In this document: positions 8,901-54,239 of the stretch, piece after piece
Layout: each line of letters opens with the position of its first letter
How positions within the stretch are numbered: the first letter of the stretch is position 1
Assembly: GCA_951406725.2 (NCBI GenBank)
Contig: OX597816.1
Coordinates: forward strand, 82,336,001-82,400,000
Length of the DNA stretch: 64,000 nt
Source of the DNA: Octopus vulgaris
Taxonomy: Eukaryota
Reading direction: 5' to 3'
Translations under genes and position numbers: made by a program
Notes under the pieces: model-generated
What the model saw: only the letters and a program-made list of their open reading frames with translations
Databases searched by the model: none
Told to the model about the DNA's origin: nothing

Positions 8901-9508
8901 AGTACCTCTCACCCAGTTTACTAGTACTGCTGCTACCCATACAACCACCTACTGCTTGGGTGCCTGTAACAGAGTAGCTCTGATCTAAGGATAATTTCCT
9001 CCTTTATTTTTTCCAAAAAGTAAACAAAAAAAAAAGATCCACTTTGCTGTAATTAGGGACCATAAATGTATAGTACATTATTTTAAACATGATTGGTTGG
9101 TTTGTTGGTGTGCCATGTTTGGTTCCATTACTTTCAGACCTCTAAGCACAGACATAATCTATATTGTTTTCATGAGAGCATGTGTACATAAAAAAAGTTA
9201 GAATGTGTGCTAATGTGTCTATAGTTGTTGAAGCACACCATATATATAATAGATAGGCAGAAAGTATTAAGAATTCAAAGTACAGAGTTAATATTGAACT
9301 AAATCAAAAGATTGGTGAGCAGGGCAAAAAGACAAAAAAACAGTTTCTTGTTTGTACATAAAGTAGTTTTGTAGGGAAATATAGATGAAATAAATTTAAA
9401 AGAAAACTGTTTCACCATAAATTTGAAAATAAGTCGACAGCTACAAAGCAAAAAAAAAAAAAAAAAAACTGATTTTAACAATATGAATATTCAGCCAAGT
9501 AAACTCAC

Positions 9509-9601
9509 CTGAAGAACAAACTTTTGATCAATGAATTTTTTAGCAGAAGTTGCCACAAAGTCAGGAGATTCTAAAAACCTTAAGAAAAATTCATAGACAA
9601 T
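9509..9601 (-). CDS. PPP2R5: Next internal coding exon (93 nt, phase 0/0) of the same B56 gene
   Basis: Translation [31 protein letters not shown] directly follows WPHLQ in B56 proteins. It has a polypyrimidine tract plus ccccag acceptor and a CAG/gtgagt donor. Confidence 0.96.
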
Positions 9602-9780
9602 CTGGGGAAAAAAGAAAAAAAGAAAGGCTTTATAAGATTGGTTGATAGCTATAACAAGAGAAAGAAAGAAAAAAATTATACATATACATTAAAAAGAATT
9701 ATGGAAAGAAATAACATTTACAAATAATATGAACAAGTTACAGTGAACTTCAGTGTTAAATTGAAACAGATATAAACGTA

Positions 9781-23676: not shown

Positions 23677-24776
23677 AACTAGAAAAGCACTCGGAGAGCA
23701 TAGACCTCCACCAAGCAACTCATTTCCACCCATATACACGCAGGCTGAAAATTGCCCAATTTCCCAAACCAACGCCGCCAAAAACATAACCTCATCATCA
23801 TCATCATCATCATCGTTTAACGTCCATTCTCCATGCTAGCATGGGTTGGACGGTTCGGCCGGGGATCTGGGAAGCCAGAAGGCTGCACCAGGCTCCAGTC
23901 TTATCTGACAATGTTTCTACAGCTGGATGCCCTTCCTAACGCCAACCACTCCGTGAGTGTAGTGGGTGCTTTTTACGTACCACCCGCACAGGTGTCAGGC
24001 GAGGCTGGCATCGGCCACGGTCGGATTGGTGCATTTTACATGCCACCGGCACGGAAGCCAGTCGAGGCGGCACTGGCTTCAGCCACGATTCGGATGGTGC
24101 TTTTTATGTGCCACCGGCACGGAAGCCAGCCGAGGCGGCGCTGTGGAGGTAAAAAAAAAAAGTAACAGCCATATGATTTTTTTTTTTTTTTAAACCCTAA
24201 CCATACTAAACCTAACTAAACCTACCTATCTACTTTACATCCCTCTGTGGTCAGTATAGTATCAGTCATCCCTGAAGAGTCTAGCCTCAGCTGTTGCTAT
24301 CACTGCCTCCTCCTTCTCCTCCTCCTCTGCTGCTGCTTTTATCAACCCTTGAATATGTGTCATTTAATTTCTGAACTGTTTTGCTGCCGTTTGTTTATGT
24401 AGTTTGATCCTTTTATCTAGTTTCTAGTAAGATAGACATGTGAATAAAATTACTAACAGAGAAACGAAAATAAGATTTTGGAAACAGCAATGCCACCATA
24501 GGTTACGTGAAAACCATGAATGTATTTCAAGGGAGATAATCAGAGAAAGATTCAAACAATGTAACATTGTAATACTTCATGTAAAGTAAATATAACAAAT
24601 GAAAAATCCTTCAAGAATCCATAAAAATTTCTGGATCACTACAAAAGTTTTCTCATCTGTTCCTTGTAAGTTTCATCGAATACTGTTCACAACTTTTTGA
24701 GTTATTTTGCCCACAGACGGACAGATGGACAAACCAACACCGATGAAAACATACCTCCTTCCTTGGCAGAGGTAAT
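23677..24776 (-). mobile_element. HINE-like element(s) on the minus strand, interrupted by an RTE tail
   Basis: aactagaaaagcactcggagagcatagacctccaccaag (3' end) at 23677, aaaacataacctc...ggaggtaa flanking the RTE insert, and a second 5' end aaaacatacctccttccttggcagaggtaat at ~24745-24776. Confidence 0.65.
23793..24143 (-). mobile_element. RTE 3' UTR-only insertion nested in a Helentron-type element
   Basis: (CAT)n at 23793, then gtttaacgtcc...ctggatgcccttcctaacgccaaccac and three UTR units. Confidence 0.9.
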
Positions 24777-28841: not shown

Positions 28842-30021
28842 TCACATAATGTAATTTTCCTATACCTATGTATCCCCTTTGATAGTAGGTTAACATATAT
28901 TTATTTTCCTTTTGTTTAATGACAAGCTTAGGTTGAAGGCTCAACTCCAGTTTAGTTTTCTGTATTGCATGTTGAAAAGGTTTCCTTTTCCTGCCATCAT
29001 CTGAAAAAACATATTCCAATATCTATGAGCCATATCTTAACAGCACAGCTCATGAGCAATTGTTCTTATATTCATTTTTACATCTGTTTCTCCACACTAG
29101 CATGAGTTAGACAAATATGTTATTGAAGCATTTGTTTTACAGCCAGATAACCTTGTTGATGCTAACTTTTAACTGTCTTTCAAGTAAGGGGCTTCTTATT
29201 CCACATGGCTTTGAAGGCACAAAGTGAGCCAGTGATTTATTAACAGAAGTGCCAACAAGAACATGCAAACATTGTGCCATATGTGTAAGCTAGTGGCAGA
29301 TATAAACAAATACACACATTCATATGGTGGGATTTCTTTAACATTATCTCTTGCTCTTCACAGAGTGAACAAAGAGAATTTCGCCTACCAAGTTGGATGA
29401 CTGAGTGATACTGATGAGATATATAGATATCATACAGACTATAGTAGAGGCTAATATATACAATACACAATTGTCTGAACTTCAACTAAGAAAAGTTATG
29501 AGCTGAGCAAATAATAAAAAAAAATCCTATATTATCATGAAGAAGAAAAAAAGTTGACCTCATTTCAAATTAAAAGTATCATACCATGTTTGTTGCACTT
29601 TCCAACTATAAACAACTTTTAGCTGTTGTTCAAACCTGGCTACAGGATAGTGAAATTCTACTACATGACAACTAATTTTATCCTAACCAAGCAGAGTGCT
29701 AATTTCTGCTGTGAAAAACATGTAAATTTCACATATCTATATCTCTATATCTATATCTATATCTCTATAAATATATCTATATATATATATTGTTTATAAA
29801 AATCTCATTTGCTTGACAAGCAAGTCTTTCATAAAAGTGCTAAATATTTCCTTGTATCATTGTCCTCATCACCTTCCCCATAACTTTAATTTTCATCTTC
29901 TCCATTCTCACACTTCAGTTGTGGAAATTAAAATTTACCCTTCTGGATTCTTGACATGTCTCATCTAGCTATGATCACTGAACATATTACCTGGAATCTC
30001 TCATAAAAAATTCATTCAATT

Positions 30022-30165
30022 CGTTAGGAAGGGCATCCAGCTGTAGAAACATTGCCAAATTAGACTGGAGCCTGGTGCAGCCTTCTGGCTTCCCAGAACC
30101 CCGGTCGAACCGTCCAACCCATGCTAGCATGGAGAACGGACGTTAAACGACGATGATGATGATGA
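30022..30165 (+). mobile_element. Short RTE 3' terminal fragment with (GAT)n tail
   Basis: cgttaggaagggcatccagctgtagaaac...ccatgctagcatggagaacggacgttaaacgacgatgatg. Confidence 0.92.
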
Positions 30166-30363
30166 TATATATATATATATATATATATATCTATATCTAT
30201 ATATCTATATCTATATATCTATATATATATATCTATATATATATATATATCTATATATATCTATATCTATATATCTATATATCTATATATATATATATAT
30301 ATCTATATTTATATATATCTATATATATATCTATATATATCTATATCTATCTATCTATATATA
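30166..30363. repeat. (AT)/(ATCT) compound microsatellite; the same motif occurs at 29733-29788
   Basis: Directly visible. Other simple repeats occur at 14675-14754, 17028-17078, 19786-19822, 34828-34868, 35443-35506, 40120-40157 and 54398-54428. Confidence 0.9.
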
Positions 30364-30364
30364 T

Positions 30365-30537
30365 TTACTCTTTTACTCTTTTACTTGTTTCAGTCATTTG
30401 ACTGCAGCCATGCTGGAGCACCACCTTTTAGTACTTATTCTATCGGTCTCTTTTTGCCGAACCGCTAAGTGACGGGGACCTAAACACACCAGCATCGGTT
30501 GTCAAGCAATGCTAGGGGGACAAACACAGACACACAA

Positions 30538-30568
<31 letters not shown>

Positions 30569-30738
30569 TATATACGACAGGCTTCTTTCAGTTTCCGTCT
30601 ACCAAATCCACTCACAAGGCATTGGTCGGCCCGGGGCTATAGCAGAAGACACTTGCCCAAGATGCCACGCAGTGGGACTGAACCCGCAACCGTGTGGTTG
30701 GTTAGCAAGCTACTTACCACACAGCCACTCCTGCGCCT
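30365..30738 (-). mobile_element. Young tRNA-derived SINE with CORE-like domain (octopus OR-type)
   Basis: Minus strand: ggcgcaggagtggctgtgtggtaag (A box-like), ggttcagtccc (B box-like), cttgggcaagtg (CORE-like), an internal (TG)n tract, and tail ccagcatggctgcagtcaaatgactgaaacaag(taaaagag)n. Confidence 0.85.
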
Positions 30739-31415
30739 ATATATATATATATATAAATAAGAGAGAGAGATAGAGAGAGAATAAAATTCAAACTTTTTTT
30801 TTCAAATTGATATTGTGAGCAAAGATAAAAATAGTTCAATAATACAACAGCTAAATTATTGCTGCACTAGTTGCACACTCATTCTGCTGCCACATGTAGG
30901 AATAAGTTTAATAACCAATAACCAGACAAACTATATTTATGATACTTTGCCTACAACAAAGATCAAAAGTCCAATTATGAATAATAATGTACACAAAGAA
31001 ATGAATTTTTTATGAGAGATTCCAGGTAATATGTTCAGTGATCATAGCTAGATGAGACATGTCAAGAATCCAGAAGGGTAAATTTTAATTTCCACAACTG
31101 AAGTGTGAGAATGGAGAAGATGAAAACTAAAGTTATGGGGAAGGTGATGAGGACAATGATACAAGGAAATATTTAGCACTTTTATGAAAGACTTGCTTGT
31201 CAAGCAAATGAGATTTTTATAAACAATTATTGGTTAGTATCCTTGCTTGGCTAGCAGCTTTCTGGTCATAGATATTAAAAATGTACTGAATAAATTAGGA
31301 GGAAATTTTCTACTTAACACACGCTGGAAAAAAAAAATGTAGATAGTTTGGTATGAAAATATTTCAGGTGTTCTGGTATAAAAAAAATTGAATGACGGGA
31401 AATACAAATGGTTAC

Positions 31416-31517
31416 CTGTAAATGGGGCCATGATGCTTCTAGTGTGGGATCATCTTCTTCTGGGTCAAAATCAGGATTATCATTAGGTGGTAGTGTTCGA
31501 AATATATTACAAGCAAT
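31416..31517 (-). CDS. PPP2R5: Internal coding exon (102 nt, phase 0/0) of PP2A regulatory subunit B' (B56), alpha/beta/epsilon (widerborst-like) clade
   Basis: Manual translation gives [34 protein letters not shown], matching the B56 signature NxFRTLPP...FDPEEDEPTLEAxWPHLQ. Acceptor is ttcttttcag and donor is CAG/gtaacc. It lacks the longer SSNPTGAEF-type loop of the gamma/delta isoforms. Confidence 0.96.
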
Positions 31518-46241: not shown

Positions 46242-46253
46242 TACACATACATA

Positions 46254-48970
46254 CATCATCATCATCATCATCATCATCGTTTAACGTCCGCTTTCCATGC
46301 TAGCATGGGTTGGACGGTTCAACTGGGGTCTGGGAAGCCCGAAGGCTGCACCAGGCCAGTCAGATGTGGCAGTGTTTCTACAGCTGGATGCCCTTCCTAA
46401 TGCCAACCACTTCGAGAGTGTAGTGGGTGATTTTATGTGCCACCGACACAGGTGCCAGACGAGGCTGGCAGACGGCCACGCTCGGATGGTGTTTTTTATG
46501 TGCCACCGACACAGGTGCCAGACGAGGCTGGCAGACGGCCACGCTCGGATGGTGTTTTTTATGTGCCACCGACACAGGTGCCAGACGAGGCTGGCAGACG
46601 GCCACGCTCGGATGGTGTTTTTTATGTGCCACCGACACAGGTGCCAGACGAGGCTGGCAGACGGCCACGCTCGGATGGTGTTTTTATGTGCCACCGACAC
46701 AGGTGCCAGACGAGGCTGGCAGACGGCCACGCTCGGATGGTGTTTTCTTATGTGTCATCGACACAGGTGCCAGACGAGGCTGGCGGACGGCCGCGCTCGG
46801 ATGGTGTTTGTTACGTGCCCTCAGCACGGAGGCCAGTCATTGCGGTACTGGCTACGGTCACGTTCGGATGGATTTCTTATGTGCCACCGGCACTGGTACC
46901 ACAAGGATACAAATTCCATTGATGTTCATCTATTTTGATTTGGTTCGATTTGATTTGATACGATTCGATTCTCACTTGCCTCAACAGGTCTTCACAAGTG
47001 TCACAAGAAGGAAGGTATGCACAGGTGGACTGACTACGTCCCAGGTAGGGGCCACGGATTATGGCTTCACTAGTCTTGCCGGGTCTTCTCACGCACAGCA
47101 TACTTCCATAGGTCTCGGTCTCTAGTCATTTCCATGGTGAGACCTAACGTCCGAAGGTCGTGCTTCACCACCTCGTCCCAGGTTTTCCTGGGTCTACCTC
47201 TTCCACGGGTTCCCTCAACTGCTAGGGATTGGCACTTTCTCACACACCTATCTTCATCCATTCTCGCCACATGACCATACCAGCGCAATCGTCTCTCTTG
47301 CACACAACAACTGATGCTTCTTAGGTACAACATTTCTCTCAAGGTACTAACGCTCTGTCGAGTAAGTACACTGACATTACACATCCATCGGAGCATACTG
47401 GCTTCGTTCCTCACGAGCTTACGCATGTCCTCAGCAGTCACGGCCCATGTTTCACTGCCATGTAGCATAGCTGTTCGTACACATGCATCATACAGTCTGC
47501 CTTTTACTCTGAGCGAGAGGCCTTTAGTCACCAGCAGAGGTAAGAGCTCCCTAAACTTTGCCCAGGCTATTCTTATTCTAGCAGTTACACTTTCAGCGCA
47601 CCCACCCCCACTACTGACTTGGTCACCTAGATAGCGGAAACTATCAACTACTTCTAGTTTTTCCCCCGGAAAGTGACAGAAGTTGTTTTCTGCAGATTTT
47701 CGGAGGTCAATGCTCCAGAGCACCTGCCACATACAAAAACTATCTTCCCAGTTAGCCTACCTTTGACATTGCTGCACCTCTTATGTGTCCATAGCTTACA
47801 CTGGGTACATCTTATAGAGTTTCTACCTACACCTTTTCTACAGATCGAGCAGGGCCATCTTCCTGATGATATTTGTGGGTTTTCTACCTTTCTACTTATT
47901 AGGACTTTGGTTTTAGCTAGGTTGACTCTAAGGCCCCTCGATTCTAAACCCTCCTTCCACACCTGGAACTTCTCCTCCAGTTCTGATAGTGACTCAGCGA
48001 TTAGAGCGAGGTCGTCAGCATAGAGGAGCTCCCAGGGGCAACCTGTCTTGAATTCCTCCGTTATTGCCTGGAGGACTATGATAAATAGGAGGGGCTGAGT
48101 ACTGAACCCTGGTGGACCCCAACCTCTACTTTGAATTCTTCTGTGTACATGTTGCCAACTCTAACCTTACTTACGGCATCTCTGTACATGGCTTGCACAG
48201 CCCTCACCAGCCATTCATCTATCCCTAGTTTCCTCATTGACCACCAGATGAGGGATCGGGGGACCCTATCAAAGGCTTTCTCCATGTCAACGAAAGCCAG
48301 GTACAGGGGCTTATCCTTGGCTAGGTATTTCTCCTGCAGCTGCCTTACCAGGAATATAGCATCAGTGGTGCTTTTCCCTGGGACAAACCCAAACTGCATC
48401 TCATCTAAACTAACTCTCTCTCTAATTAGTTGGGCTATGACCCTCTCCGTAACCTTCATTACCTGATCCAACAGCTTGATACCTCTGTAATTATTTGTAT
48501 CCAGGGCATCACCTTTACCTTTGTAGCAGTTGACTAGTATGCTGCTACACCAGTCATTGGGTATGACTCCTTCGTGTATCACCTGGTTGACTATACGGGT
48601 GACTAGGTTATAGCCGACACTGCCAGATATTTTGAGCATCTCTGCAGTAATTCCTGATGGGCCTGGGGCTTTCCCTGTCTTCATGCTTCTAATTGCCTTA
48701 GCTACCACGGAACTATCAACTCGGATAGCTGGTCCCTCTGTTGGGTCAACATTTGGCAGACTCTCTTTATCCCATTCATTTTCTTTATTCAGCAAACTTT
48801 CATAGTGGCATCTCCAAACCTCTCTCTTTGCATCCTCATTTAGCGCAAGTGAACCATCATCCATGCGAACACACTTCTCTCCTACCACATCACGATTCTC
48901 TCTCACACACTGTCTTGCAACACGAAATACCTCAAGTCTTTCATCCTCACGGCTCAGAACATTGGCAGAA
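46254..48970 (-). mobile_element. RTE-clade non-LTR retrotransposon (LINE), 5'-truncated and young; RT coding region, 3' UTR and (GAT)n tail
   Basis: Minus-strand frames give [63 protein letters not shown] (48011-48022), FRYLG, RLRWYGHVARM and RGRGRPRKTW. Stop is at 47070. There are two 1-nt frameshifts (~48090, ~47665). The (GAT)n tail is at 46254-46278 and the element sits in an (ATAC/AT) microsatellite. Confidence 0.96.
46435..46900 (-). repeat. Tandem ~63-bp repeat array in the RTE 3' UTR (six near-identical units plus 1-2 diverged ones)
   Basis: Unit atgtgccaccgacacaggtgccagacgaggctggcagacggccacgctcggatggtgtttttt starts at 46435, 46498, 46561, 46624, 46686 and 46750, with diverged units at 46813 and 46879. 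Confidence 0.95.
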
Positions 48971-48997
48971 CATACATACATACATATATACACATAC

Positions 48998-49028
<31 letters not shown>

Positions 49029-49035
49029 CACATAC

Positions 49036-49066
<31 letters not shown>

Positions 49067-49435
49067 CACATACATACATATATATATATATACACATACA
49101 TACATATATATATATATACACATACATACATATATATATATATATACACATACATACATATATATATATATATACACATACATACATATATATATATATA
49201 TACACATACATACATATATATATATATACACATACATACATATATATATATATACACATACATACATACATATATATATATACACATACATACATATATA
49301 TATATATACACATACATACATACATACATATATATATATATACATACATACATACATATATATACATACATACATATATATATATATATACATACATACA
49401 TATATATATATATACACATACATATATATATATAT

Positions 49436-49474
<39 letters not shown>

Positions 49475-49663
49475 CATACATACATACATATATATATATA
49501 TACACATACATACATACATATATATATATATACACATACATACATACATACATATATATATATATATACACATACATACATACATATATATATATATATA
49601 CACATACATACATACATATATATATATATATACACATACATACATATATATATATATATACAC

Positions 49664-49694
<31 letters not shown>

Positions 49695-49697
49695 CAC

Positions 49698-49732
<35 letters not shown>

Positions 49733-50187
49733 CACATACATACATACATATATATATATATATACACATACATACATATATATCTCTCTCTATATAAACA
49801 GCAGTTTGTCTGTGCGTTTTCTGTGTGTCTGTTTTCTCGTACCCTCACTCTGACCACGGCTTTCAACCGATTCTGATGAAACTTGACACACACATAGCCC
49901 AATGTCATAATTCAAAACTAACGCAGCGAAAATTTTGAAAAGTTCCCCCAGTTCTGAAAAAAATCGATAAATTCGACATGGGGTCGAGAATCAGAAACCC
50001 AAACCACAGACCGTCTAGGGGACGCAACTCCACCTATTTTAACTCTCAAAAAAATTTACCATCATTTTTTTCCCATTTTTTGGCTATAACTCTCTAAAAA
50101 TGCTTTATAGTTATTTCCCTTACAAACCTGAGCAACGCCGGGCGATACTGCTAGTATATATATACACATACATACATACATATATAC

Positions 50188-50218
<31 letters not shown>

Positions 50219-50264
50219 TATACATACATACATACATACATATATACATACATACATACATACA

Positions 50265-50298
<34 letters not shown>

Positions 50299-50351
50299 CA
50301 TACATACATACATACATATATATATACACATACATACATACATATATATAC

Positions 50352-50382
<31 letters not shown>

Positions 50383-50477
50383 TATACACATACATACATA
50401 CATACATATATATATACACATACATACATACATACATATATATATACACATACATACATACATACATATATATATAC

Positions 50478-50512
<35 letters not shown>

Positions 50513-50517
50513 TATAC

Positions 50518-50548
<31 letters not shown>

Positions 50549-50679
50549 TATACACATACATACATACATACATATATATATATACACATACATACATACA
50601 TACATATATATATATACACATACATACATATATATATATATACACATACATACATACATACATATATATATATATACAC

Positions 50680-50714
<35 letters not shown>

Positions 50715-50983
50715 CACATACATACATACATATATATATATATACACATACATACATATATATATATATACACATACATACATACATATATATATATATA
50801 TACACATACATACATACATATATATATATATACACATACATACATACATACATATATATATATACACATACATACATACATACATATATATATATATACA
50901 CATACATACATACATATATATATATATATACACATACATACATACATATATATATATACACATACATATATATATATATACAC

Positions 50984-51014
<31 letters not shown>

Positions 51015-51137
51015 CACATACATACATATATATATATATATATACACACATACATACATACATATATATATATATACATACATACATACATACATATATA
51101 TATATATACACATACATACATACATATATATATATAC

Positions 51138-51168
<31 letters not shown>

Positions 51169-51341
51169 CACATACATACATACATATATATACACATACA
51201 TATATATATACACATACATACATACATATATATATATATACACATACATACATACATATATATATATATACACATACATACATACATATATATATATACA
51301 CATACATACATACATACATATATATATATATATACACATAC

Positions 51342-51372
<31 letters not shown>

Positions 51373-51979
51373 CACATACATACATACATACATATATATA
51401 TATACACATACATACATACATATATATATATATACACATACATACATACATATATATATATATACACATACATACATACATATATATATATATACACATA
51501 CATACATACATATATATATATATACACATACATACATACATATATATATATATACACATACATACATACATATATATATATATACACATACATACATACA
51601 TACATATATATATATATATACACATACATACATATATATATATATATACACATACATACATACATATATATATACACATACATACATATATATATATATA
51701 TACACATACATACATATATATATATATATACACATACATACATATATATATATACACATACATACATACATATATATATATATACACATACATACATACA
51801 TATATATATACACATACATATATATATACACATACATATATATACACATACATATATATACACATACATATATATATACACATACATACATACATATATA
51901 TATATATACACATACATACATACATATATATATATATATACACATACATACATACATACATATATATATATACACATAC

Positions 51980-52012
<33 letters not shown>

Positions 52013-52193
52013 CACATACATACATACATATATATATATATATACACATACATACATACATATATATATACACATACATACATACATATATACATATATA
52101 TATATACACATACATACATACATATATATATATACACATACATACATACATATATATATATACACATACATACATACATATATATATATATAC

Positions 52194-52252
<59 letters not shown>

Positions 52253-52257
52253 AACAC

Positions 52258-52290
<33 letters not shown>

Positions 52291-52329
52291 CACATACATA
52301 CATACATATATATATATATATAAAAACAC

Positions 52330-52360
<31 letters not shown>

Positions 52361-52457
52361 CACATACATACATACATATATATATATATATACACATACA
52401 TACATATATATATATATATATACACATACATACATACATATATATATATATATACAC

Positions 52458-52488
<31 letters not shown>

Positions 52489-52491
52489 CAC

Positions 52492-52522
<31 letters not shown>

Positions 52523-52609
52523 CACATACATACATACATATATATATATATATACACATACATACATATATATATATATATATACACATACATACATACA
52601 TATATATAC

Positions 52610-52650
<41 letters not shown>

Positions 52651-53483
52651 CATACATATATATATATATACACATACATATACACATACATACATATATA
52701 TATATACACATACATATATATATATATATATACACATACATACATACATACATATATATATATACACATACATACATACATACATATATATATATACACA
52801 TACATACATACATACATATATATATATACACATACATACATACATACATATATATATATATACACATACATACATACATACATATATATATATACACATA
52901 CATACATACATATATATATACACATACATACATACATATATATATACACATACATACATACATACATATATATATACACATACATACATACATACATATA
53001 TATATACACATACATACATATATATATACACATACATACATACATATATATATACACATACATACATACATATATATATATACACATACATACATATATA
53101 TACACATACATACATATATATACACATACATACATACATATATATATATATACACATACATACATATATATATATATACACATACATACATATATATATA
53201 CACATACATACATATATATATACACATACATACATATATATATACACATACATACATATATATATACACATACATACATACATATATACACATACATACA
53301 TATATATACACATACATACATACATACACATACATACATACATATATACACATACATACATACATATATACACATACATACATACATATATACACATACA
53401 TACATACATATATACACATACATACATACATATATACACATACATACATACATATATACACATACATACATACATATATACAC

Positions 53484-53528
<45 letters not shown>

Positions 53529-53537
53529 CATACATAT
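48971..53537. repeat. Compound (ATAC)n/(AT)n/AC satellite of about 4.2 kb, split by a Helitron; left remnant at 46124-46253
   Basis: Directly visible. The higher-order unit cac(atac)1-4(at)2-9 varies in length. Confidence 0.97.
49783..50154 (+). mobile_element. Non-autonomous Helitron (372 bp) inserted into the satellite
   Basis: 5' TC and 3' CTAG termini, subterminal hairpin cctgagcaacgccggg about 10 nt from the end, an A|T insertion site with no TSD, and an internal caaccgattctgatgaaact motif. Confidence 0.85.
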
Positions 53538-54239
53538 GGATATATATATGTGTGCGTGTGTGTATCAAAATAAGCAATAAGGATATCCAGAGGTGATGCA
53601 GTACGATTGTTTCACGCAACTCCATTTAATTGAACAATGCAACCATTACATCAATTTAAATGCATAACAATCCTCAGCTGCACAAAGACATAGAATTTAA
53701 TTAAATCAAAACAAATGGACACAGTATGATTTTACTTAAAATTTCCAAGAAGTTAAGGAGATAGACAAAACATACTACCTTCACTTAAGCTTAGAAGCTA
53801 CTAAGGTATCAGGAAGAAAGACTTGTTAGAGATTTTGCTTGTCACTGTTTTATGGGGTCAGTTTTAATTTATAGACTAGTTTTATCAAATACTTGTATGC
53901 CTAAGAATATCTGGACAGTTAGACGATACAAAAAACACAAGAAAAAACAAGGACGGGTCATTCAGAGCTTTCTATCATCAGTTGAGTTGCAGATCGTCAT
54001 TGCAGTTTCGGCTGGCTATAGTTGAGACTGCTCTAATCTGGCTGGCCACAAGGAAATGTAAGCTAAGAGCACTAGATTCTCTGGAAGAAAGCAAGCGAAT
54101 GTATATGAAAACAAGGAAGAAGGAAAAAAAAAAAGAATAGAGAAATGGTACACAATTACAAATACAAAGTCAGAAATCTTGTTACTGCTGCAGCAAGCTG
54201 GTAGAAACTTTAGTACCTCAGAAAAAATGCAAAGTGGCA

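What the first reader, a model, noticed from the sequence alone, without database searches (positions are those of the whole stretch)
29733..31227. Host-intron/RTE chimera: apparent RT template switch onto the host pre-mRNA creates a 228-bp dsRNA stem beside an exon
Seen: 29789-30016 is a 227/228 reverse-complement copy of unique intronic sequence at 31000-31227. It is joined through 5 unexplained nt (caatt) to an RTE 3' end with a (GAT)n tail (30022-30165), and the whole cassette is flanked on both sides by the same AT/ATCT microsatellite. Read in the RTE's orientation, the captured piece is the sense sequence of the minus-strand B56 pre-mRNA. Inference: target-primed RT began on RTE RNA and jumped to the nascent host transcript about 1 kb away, as in U6-L1 chimeras. 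DNA-templated repair is the alternative. In the pre-mRNA the arms would pair completely (the one mismatch is G-U), starting 188 nt after the 5' splice site. That is a strong ADAR substrate in a lineage known for heavy A-to-I editing.
Basis: partly seen in the sequence, partly recalled or inferred. Interest (0 to 1): 0.72.

Follow-up and report, generated by a model that had tools for sequence, protein, structure and literature searches.

The report
Local DNA patch at retrotransposon junction
A very young jumping-gene fragment inside an intron carries a reversed 228-base copy of DNA lying about 1 kb away, likely patched in by DNA-templated repair as the element inserted; this is a known kind of accident, predicted to give the gene's unspliced RNA a long hairpin.

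Summary
29789-30016 is a 227/228 inverted copy of intron sequence (31000-31227) found only twice in the genome. It joins through CAATT to the 145-nt tail of a very young RTE-type LINE, antisense in a B56 intron. Contigs of one public run show the left junction and both branch points; five other runs show only the source, so the allele is recent and polymorphic. Among 171 other young copies, 4 carry similar inverted local captures at the 5' junction, taken from either flank (3' junctions 0 of 171; microsatellite edges 6 of 2302). I favour DNA-templated snap-back or strand invasion during 5' joining (about 0.6) over a switch onto pre-mRNA (about 0.27). The strand-bias test was inconclusive, and its weak signals fit the RNA model. 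Both routes are in print for L1 and R2. The U6 analogy is weak, since U6/L1 chimeras are reported to form by RNA ligation. The hairpin is predicted only; editing was not testable in a carrier, the exon lies outside the stem, and near-perfect stems are common here (14 in 1.5 Mb). The scan noted similar patches at Penelope junctions in another genome.

The parts
29733..29790 (.). Left AT/ATCT microsatellite (target site, 5' side); its last two bases (AT) are shared with the captured arm
   Evidence: joined to the arm in an X3 contig
29789..30016 (+). Captured piece: inverted copy of 31000-31227, 227/228 identical
   Evidence: 228-nt contig in X3
30017..30021 (+). Five extra nucleotides CAATT; with neighbours they form an ATTC-ATTC-AATTC stutter at 30010-30022, likely a false start and re-priming
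   Evidence: sequence; comparison with source; mechanism inferred
30022..30166 (+). 5'-truncated 3' end of a young single-ORF endonuclease/reverse-transcriptase LINE (RTE-type) with (GAT)n tail
   Evidence: 100% to all 40 places scored; 63 exact subfamily copies; long copy L111 has an intact 1043-aa frame
30165..30364 (.). Right AT/ATCT microsatellite (target site, 3' side)
30365..30737 (-). Older multicopy SINE-like element between cassette and source (tRNA-like head is my recalled reading)
   Evidence: several 77-80% copies in the window
31000..31227 (-). Source of the captured piece, unique intron sequence of the B56 gene
   Evidence: uninterrupted in contigs of X4, X6, X8
31416..31517 (-). 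Exon of a PP2A B56 regulatory-subunit gene; donor 188 nt before the source arm in transcript order
   Evidence: Pfam PF01603; splice ends

Best explanation
This is a recent, polymorphic, 5'-truncated RTE-type LINE insertion whose 5' end carries an inverted copy of nearby intron DNA, likely made by DNA-templated synthesis while the insertion was being sealed. Shown: structure, youth, polymorphism of the arm, and enrichment of such captures at 5' junctions. Inferred steps: (1) the element nicked the bottom strand in the (AT)n run and reverse-transcribed 145 nt; (2) the cDNA, which is continuous with the bottom strand of the right flank, came off its RNA and paired back onto that same strand about 835 nt away, exposed by resection or by invasion; (3) after a false start (the CAATT stutter) a polymerase, a host theta-like enzyme or the RT itself, copied 228 nt outward; (4) the new end joined the left microsatellite through 2 nt of AT microhomology. 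The by-product is a predicted 228-bp intronic stem with no sign of function.
For: Tail identical to the youngest subfamily and arm 99.6% identical to its source, so both are equally recent. 4 of 171 other young copies carry inverted local copies at the 5' junction (L147, 61 nt unique plus AT run, 100%, 349-445 nt into the 3' flank, 2 places genome-wide; L162, 21 nt plus a stutter, 113-133 nt into the 3' flank; L085, 28 nt from 1.5 kb in the 5' flank with 4-nt microhomology; L120, fold-back of the adjacent 5' flank) against 6 of 2302 microsatellite edges (Fisher p 0.003) and 4 of 4965 random points. All four are inverted and come from both flanks, which snap-back on either broken end predicts. 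Print precedent: 22 templated insertions among 3,598 L1s ascribed to pairing with nearby DNA (bioRxiv 10.1101/2024.08.27.596794, passages); fold-back inverted duplications of 52-220 bp (PMC10191854, passages); R2 snap-back onto nearby target DNA (PMC11371274, passages); ZfL2-2 5' extra nucleotides derived from flanks (PMC4245944, passages).
Against: No observation here separates a DNA from an RNA template at this locus; both have the same strand. The inverted excess is not significant (4 of 4 p 0.125; 4 of 5 with the complex direct case L142, p 0.375), and 5' against 3' junctions is 4 against 0 of 171 (p 0.12). Weak orientation signals fit the RNA model: base skew suggests a gene antisense to the RTE at L162 and perhaps L147, and a VERL_C exon near L120 is antisense to its RTE. 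The reported L1 templates lie typically within 15 bp of the site, far closer than here. Filters were tightened after looking at the data, and L120 could be an older palindrome. Co-insertion of arm and tail is inferred: no run showed the empty site directly.
Confidence: 0.6

Rival explanations
1. The RT left the RTE RNA and continued on the B56 pre-mRNA (or on a ligated RTE/pre-mRNA fragment) transcribed across the site, copying 228 nt.
For: The piece is sense to the transcript and lies in the part already transcribed before polymerase reaches the site. The stutter sits at the cDNA-proximal end, in line with synthesis starting from the cDNA. One such L1 case is reported (PMC10191854, passage and legend). 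Skew at L162 and L147 and the exon near L120 are compatible. An unchecked scan note reports a U6/RTE chimera in this genome.
Against: No clean direct-orientation capture among 171 copies, although sense-inserted copies should give them. Fold-back and microhomology cases occur. A transcript stalled at the nick would end at the site, not 635-835 nt before it (inference). The one mismatch is not an A-to-G change in the copy. U6/L1 chimeras are reported to form by ligation (PMC6789731, abstract).
Confidence: 0.27
2. Two separate events: the RTE inserted, and a later break repair at the microsatellite added the inverted patch (possibly removing more of the RTE).
For: Near-perfect inverted duplications beside microsatellites occur away from RTE junctions (6 of 2302 edges; 14 pairs in 1.5 Mb). 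No target-site duplication can be read.
Against: Both parts are equally young; such patches are about nine times more frequent at 5' junctions than at microsatellite edges; 145 nt is an ordinary truncation length (30 of 171 copies are 160 nt or shorter).
Confidence: 0.1
3. Assembly or library artefact.
For: The right-junction contig and the A at 29889 were not seen in X3; X3 may be the sample behind the assembly.
Against: X3 has a contig across the left junction at depth 31.7 (flank 56.9), and the arm contig breaks exactly at both ends with raised depth, 98.6.
Confidence: 0.03

Closest known systems
L1 'templated insertions' (bioRxiv 10.1101/2024.08.27.596794, passages) and fold-back inverted duplications at L1 5' junctions (PMC10191854, passages)
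   Same: 5'-truncated LINE fused at its 5' end to a copy under 250 bp of local genomic sequence; rate of the same order (0.3-0.6% there, about 2% here)
   Different: RTE-type element in an invertebrate, carried in an assembled genome rather than in a tumour clone; template 635-835 nt away on the 3' side instead of typically within 15 bp
R2 'snap-back' 5' junctions (PMC11371274, passages)
   Same: cDNA 3' end primes extra synthesis on the opposite strand of nearby target DNA before joining
   Different: Engineered R2 at rDNA in human cells; most snap-backs there are onto the cDNA itself
L1 co-inserted with nearby precursor mRNA (PMC10191854, passage and Extended Data Fig. 9g legend; figure not seen)
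   Different: Single reported case; RNA template not demonstrable here
ZfL2-2 5' extra nucleotides derived from flanking sequence (PMC4245944, passages)
   Same: Flank-derived filler at the LINE 5' junction
   Different: L2 clade in cultured cells; described as several nucleotides long
U6/L1 chimeras (PMC6789731, abstract)
   Same: Foreign sequence 5' of a truncated LINE
   Different: Abundant distant small RNA, joined by RtcB ligation; here a unique local intron piece
RTE-2_OV of Octopus (PMC9115989, passages)
   Same: Single-ORF EN/RT LINE with zinc-finger-like module and signs of recent activity
   Different: ORF 1109 aa there, 1043 aa stop-to-stop in L111; sequences not compared, identity untested

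Membership tests
LINE insertion with locally templated 5' filler | 5'-truncated LINE with intact 3' tail | tested here: met
   30022-30166
LINE insertion with locally templated 5' filler | Filler is a near-exact copy of unique nearby sequence abutting the 5' junction | tested here: met
   227/228, 5 nt from the junction, 2 places in the genome
LINE insertion with locally templated 5' filler | Filler and element inserted together (one target-site duplication or an empty allele) | tested here: inconclusive
   Microsatellite hides any duplication; runs without the arm exist but the empty junction was not seen
LINE insertion with locally templated 5' filler | Template was DNA | tested here: inconclusive
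   Geometry of 4 other cases favours it; not significant
LINE/pre-mRNA template-switch chimera | Captured piece is sense to a host transcript covering the site | tested here: met
   B56 on minus strand; a one-in-two outcome by chance
LINE/pre-mRNA template-switch chimera | RNA hallmark in the piece (splice junction, editing mark, processed end) | tested here: not met
   Purely intronic, colinear, mismatch is not A-to-G in the copy; absence does not exclude RNA
LINE/pre-mRNA template-switch chimera | Family-wide strand bias with host transcription | tested here: inconclusive
   No host exon found for 4 of 5 other loci; skew weak
RTE-clade LINE | Single ORF with AP-type endonuclease and RT, microsatellite-like 3' tail | tested here: met
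   L111: 1043-aa frame, PF03372 and PF00078; (GAT)n tail
RTE-clade LINE | RT groups with RTE references in a tree | not tested
   No named reference set obtained; atlas gave only generic EN/RT clusters. The RTE label rests on architecture and recall
ADAR hyper-edited inverted repeat | Long intramolecular duplex in one transcript | tested here: met
   Predicted only: arms pair fully in the fold of 29780-31240 minus
ADAR hyper-edited inverted repeat | A-to-G clusters in RNA of a carrier | not testable with these tools
   Only contigs; the RNA-like run X10 runs through 31227 without a branch and shows no change
Fold-back DNA element with terminal inverted repeats | Arms multicopy and bounding one mobile unit | tested here: not met
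   Arm unique; source arm uninterrupted in other individuals

The most novel reading that the evidence does not exclude
This active RTE family copies nascent host pre-mRNA in about 2% of its insertions, so it keeps creating near-perfect intronic hairpins de novo; the likely heterozygous B56 allele would then be a natural allele-specific test of how a new duplex recruits ADAR and alters splicing in a heavily editing animal.
Probability: 0.15. Interest if true: 0.6.

Novelty: new member of a known kind. Interest (0 to 1): 0.3.

Why it matters
It extends locally templated 5' fillers, known from L1, L2 and R2, to an active RTE-type family and gives a first rate (about 2% of young copies), with templates up to 1.5 kb away. 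The allele is polymorphic, so a carrier offers a with/without comparison for editing and splicing next to a new 228-bp duplex. Its weight is limited: the mechanism class is published, no function is indicated, and similar stems are frequent in this genome.

Tried and rejected
Arm as a multicopy repeat or terminal inverted repeat: rejected. RTE tail older than the arm: rejected. Survey hits dropped by hand: L180 and L223 (multicopy fold-back elements), L117 (97% locally repeated unit older than its 99.9% RTE), L229 and L115 (RTE inside a pre-existing duplication), L127 (diverged copy in a duplicated block), L138 (older RTE tail); L142 kept apart as a complex direct rearrangement. Five segmental duplicates (L112, L114, L116, L122, L155) and three loci without a visible 5' end were left out before counting. 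Gene orientation at five other loci: 300 of 433 candidate frames scanned against Pfam; the only cellular-gene hit over cut-off was VERL_C near L120; T/A skew was positive on the B56 sense strand in 6 of 8 bins, too noisy to call. Editing: X10 and X17 contigs cover little of the arm and show no T-to-C change; A-to-G at 31135 in X8 comes with two other differences at depth 2.4 and is on the wrong strand for editing. An extra depth step in X3 near 29990 first looked like the right junction but equals the source-side contig. Distant templates for junctions with unexplained flanks were not searched.

Full report
Observation. The inverted pair is exact as described: 29789-30016 against 31000-31227, 228 nt, one mismatch at 29889. 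The arm occurs at 2 places in the 2.8-Gb own genome. Left of it lies a 58-nt AT/ATCT run, right of it CAATT, then a 145-nt LINE 3' end with a (GAT)n tail, a 200-nt AT/ATCT run, an older multicopy SINE-like element, and the source. Pfam B56 exons on the minus strand at 31413-31517 and 9506-9604 of the window, with more exons outside it, place the whole structure in one intron of about 22 kb; the source starts 188 nt after the GT donor.

The element. The tail is 100% identical in all 40 places scored of 1,330 candidates; a diagnostic 29-mer has 63 exact matches and 1,019 with at most one mismatch. A long copy, L111, has an intact 1043-aa frame with endonuclease, RT and a weak PHD-like hit. This is an active or very recently active RTE-type family (clade label not tested by a tree). 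Copies are mostly 5'-truncated (median 339 nt) and 77 of 171 run straight into an AT-type run at the 3' side, so both the short length and the microsatellite target are ordinary for it.

Reality and polymorphism. Seven runs were laid, X3 twice, all as contigs. In X3 the arm is a separate contig of exactly 228 nt at depth 98.6 against 43-58 for the flanks, and an 82-nt contig joins the arm end to the window's left microsatellite at depth 31.7, which suggests heterozygosity. The right-junction contig was not among the roughly 80% of records read. In X4, X6 (another organism label) and X8 (low depth) one contig runs through both ends of the source; in X1 and X10 it runs through 31227; X17 does not cover the arm. 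So the arm is absent from, or unseen in, five runs and present in one, which may be the assembly's own sample. The empty insertion site itself was not seen.

Family survey. I fetched 179 stretches of 7-10 kb around young copies: all 62 other exact copies, 37 one-mismatch copies listed first, and 80 stretches from the first 100 of 468 exact matches to a longer variant pattern. After removing 3 without a visible 5' end and 5 duplicates, 171 remained besides the window. A rule for near-identical, locally unique copies ending at a given point gave 5 inverted and 2 direct hits at 5' junctions, 0 inverted and 1 direct at 3' junctions, 4 inverted among 4,965 random points and 6 among 2,302 microsatellite edges. 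Hand inspection left four inverted cases (L147, L162, L085, L120) and one complex direct case (L142). Fisher p is 0.003 against microsatellite edges, 7e-5 against random points and 0.12 against 3' junctions; control points are not independent, and looser earlier rules gave more 3'-side hits from older fold-back repeats. L147 and L162 have the same geometry as the window (inverted, from the 3' flank, copied outward); L162 also stutters at the element-proximal end. Smaller fillers copied from the element itself are frequent (for example L074, L091, L098, L113).

Mechanism. At this locus a DNA bottom strand and the B56 pre-mRNA have the same sequence, so the locus alone cannot decide. The cDNA is continuous with the bottom strand of the right flank, so pairing back on that strand gives exactly an inverted 3'-flank copy; the left broken end folding back gives inverted 5'-flank copies, as in L085 and L120. 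An RNA template would also give direct copies wherever the element is sense to its gene, and no clean one was found, but 4 of 4 is only p 0.125. Against my reading, the attempts to orient host genes at the other loci were inconclusive and their weak signals (skew at L162 and L147, a VERL_C exon near L120) fit the RNA model. I put DNA-templated filling at 0.6, RNA at 0.27, two separate events at 0.1, artefact at 0.03.

Known kinds. Passages read: 22 templated insertions among 3,598 somatic L1s, under 250 bp and typically within 15 bp of the site, ascribed to pairing with nearby DNA (bioRxiv 10.1101/2024.08.27.596794; its supplementary figure on distances was not visible); fold-back inverted duplications of about 52-220 bp in 4 L1 insertions and one co-insertion of nearby precursor mRNA (PMC10191854; figure not visible); R2 snap-back and U6 'extra template' junctions (PMC11371274); flank-derived 5' extra nucleotides of ZfL2-2 (PMC4245944); 5' extra nucleotides in 14.6% of truncated L1s (PMC2912911, first part and passages); mRNA/L1 chimeras (bioRxiv 10.1101/2025.02.02.635956); an active octopus RTE (PMC9115989). 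Abstracts only: U6/L1 RNA ligation (PMC6789731); RTE target choice linked to the 3' microsatellite (PMC6007223). Six searches listed no paper on such fillers in a cephalopod RTE; the library lacks most subscription journals.

The hairpin. The minus-strand RNA of 29780-31240 folds with both arms fully paired, so editing in carriers is a fair prediction; intronic and repeat-associated editing is abundant in squid (PMC9068888, passages). It was not testable here. The exon is outside the stem. This intron already holds 13 inverted pairs of 100 nt or more, including a 95% pair between the new tail and 23815-23941, and the 1.5-Mb sample (biased to RTE neighbourhoods) holds 14 pairs of at least 97% with arms of 130 nt or more within 3 kb. 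The stem is therefore unusual only in being new and polymorphic.

Verdict. A real, young, well-resolved example of a known class of LINE 5'-junction accident, recurring in about 2% of copies of this family. Interest 0.3.

Noticed in passing
L211 (G000:C2:151160378-151161385): Two 195-nt RTE tails, 100% identical and truncated at the same point, lie head to head about 660 nt apart in a tandem repeat; possibly one event or a later inverted duplication.
   Followed up: no
L142 (G000:C1:27019600-27020800): RTE tail flanked on both sides by exact direct copies of nearby DNA (138 nt from about 1 kb upstream at the 3' side, 53 nt at the 5' side); a complex DNA-level rearrangement.
   Followed up: partly
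L140, L192 5' junctions: Inverted RTE pieces at the 5' end, as in twin priming; appears rare in this family.
   Followed up: no
L098, L074, L113 5' junctions: Repeated short re-copies of the element's own 5' end, in L098 interleaved with (AT)n, suggesting several abortive priming rounds.
   Followed up: no
L134:7105-8680 and L138:6146-7381 (oriented to the RTE strand): Inverted pairs of 532 and 476 nt at over 99% identity next to microsatellites, away from any surveyed RTE junction.
   Followed up: no
window 46250-48950 and 48970-53549, minus strand: An older copy of the same LINE, with RT frame and a 63-nt tandem array in its 3' UTR, abuts a 4.6-kb AT/ACAT microsatellite.
   Followed up: partly
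window 23815-23941 and 30022-30148: The new tail also forms a 127-nt, 95% inverted pair with an older tail 6 kb away in the same intron.
   Followed up: partly
G000:C16:30312630-30329336: A second, compact B56 paralogue on the plus strand; the C3 gene spans over 220 kb.
   Followed up: no
L120:9474-9998 (+): Open frame with a strong VERL_C (vitelline envelope sperm lysin receptor C-terminal) match.
   Followed up: no
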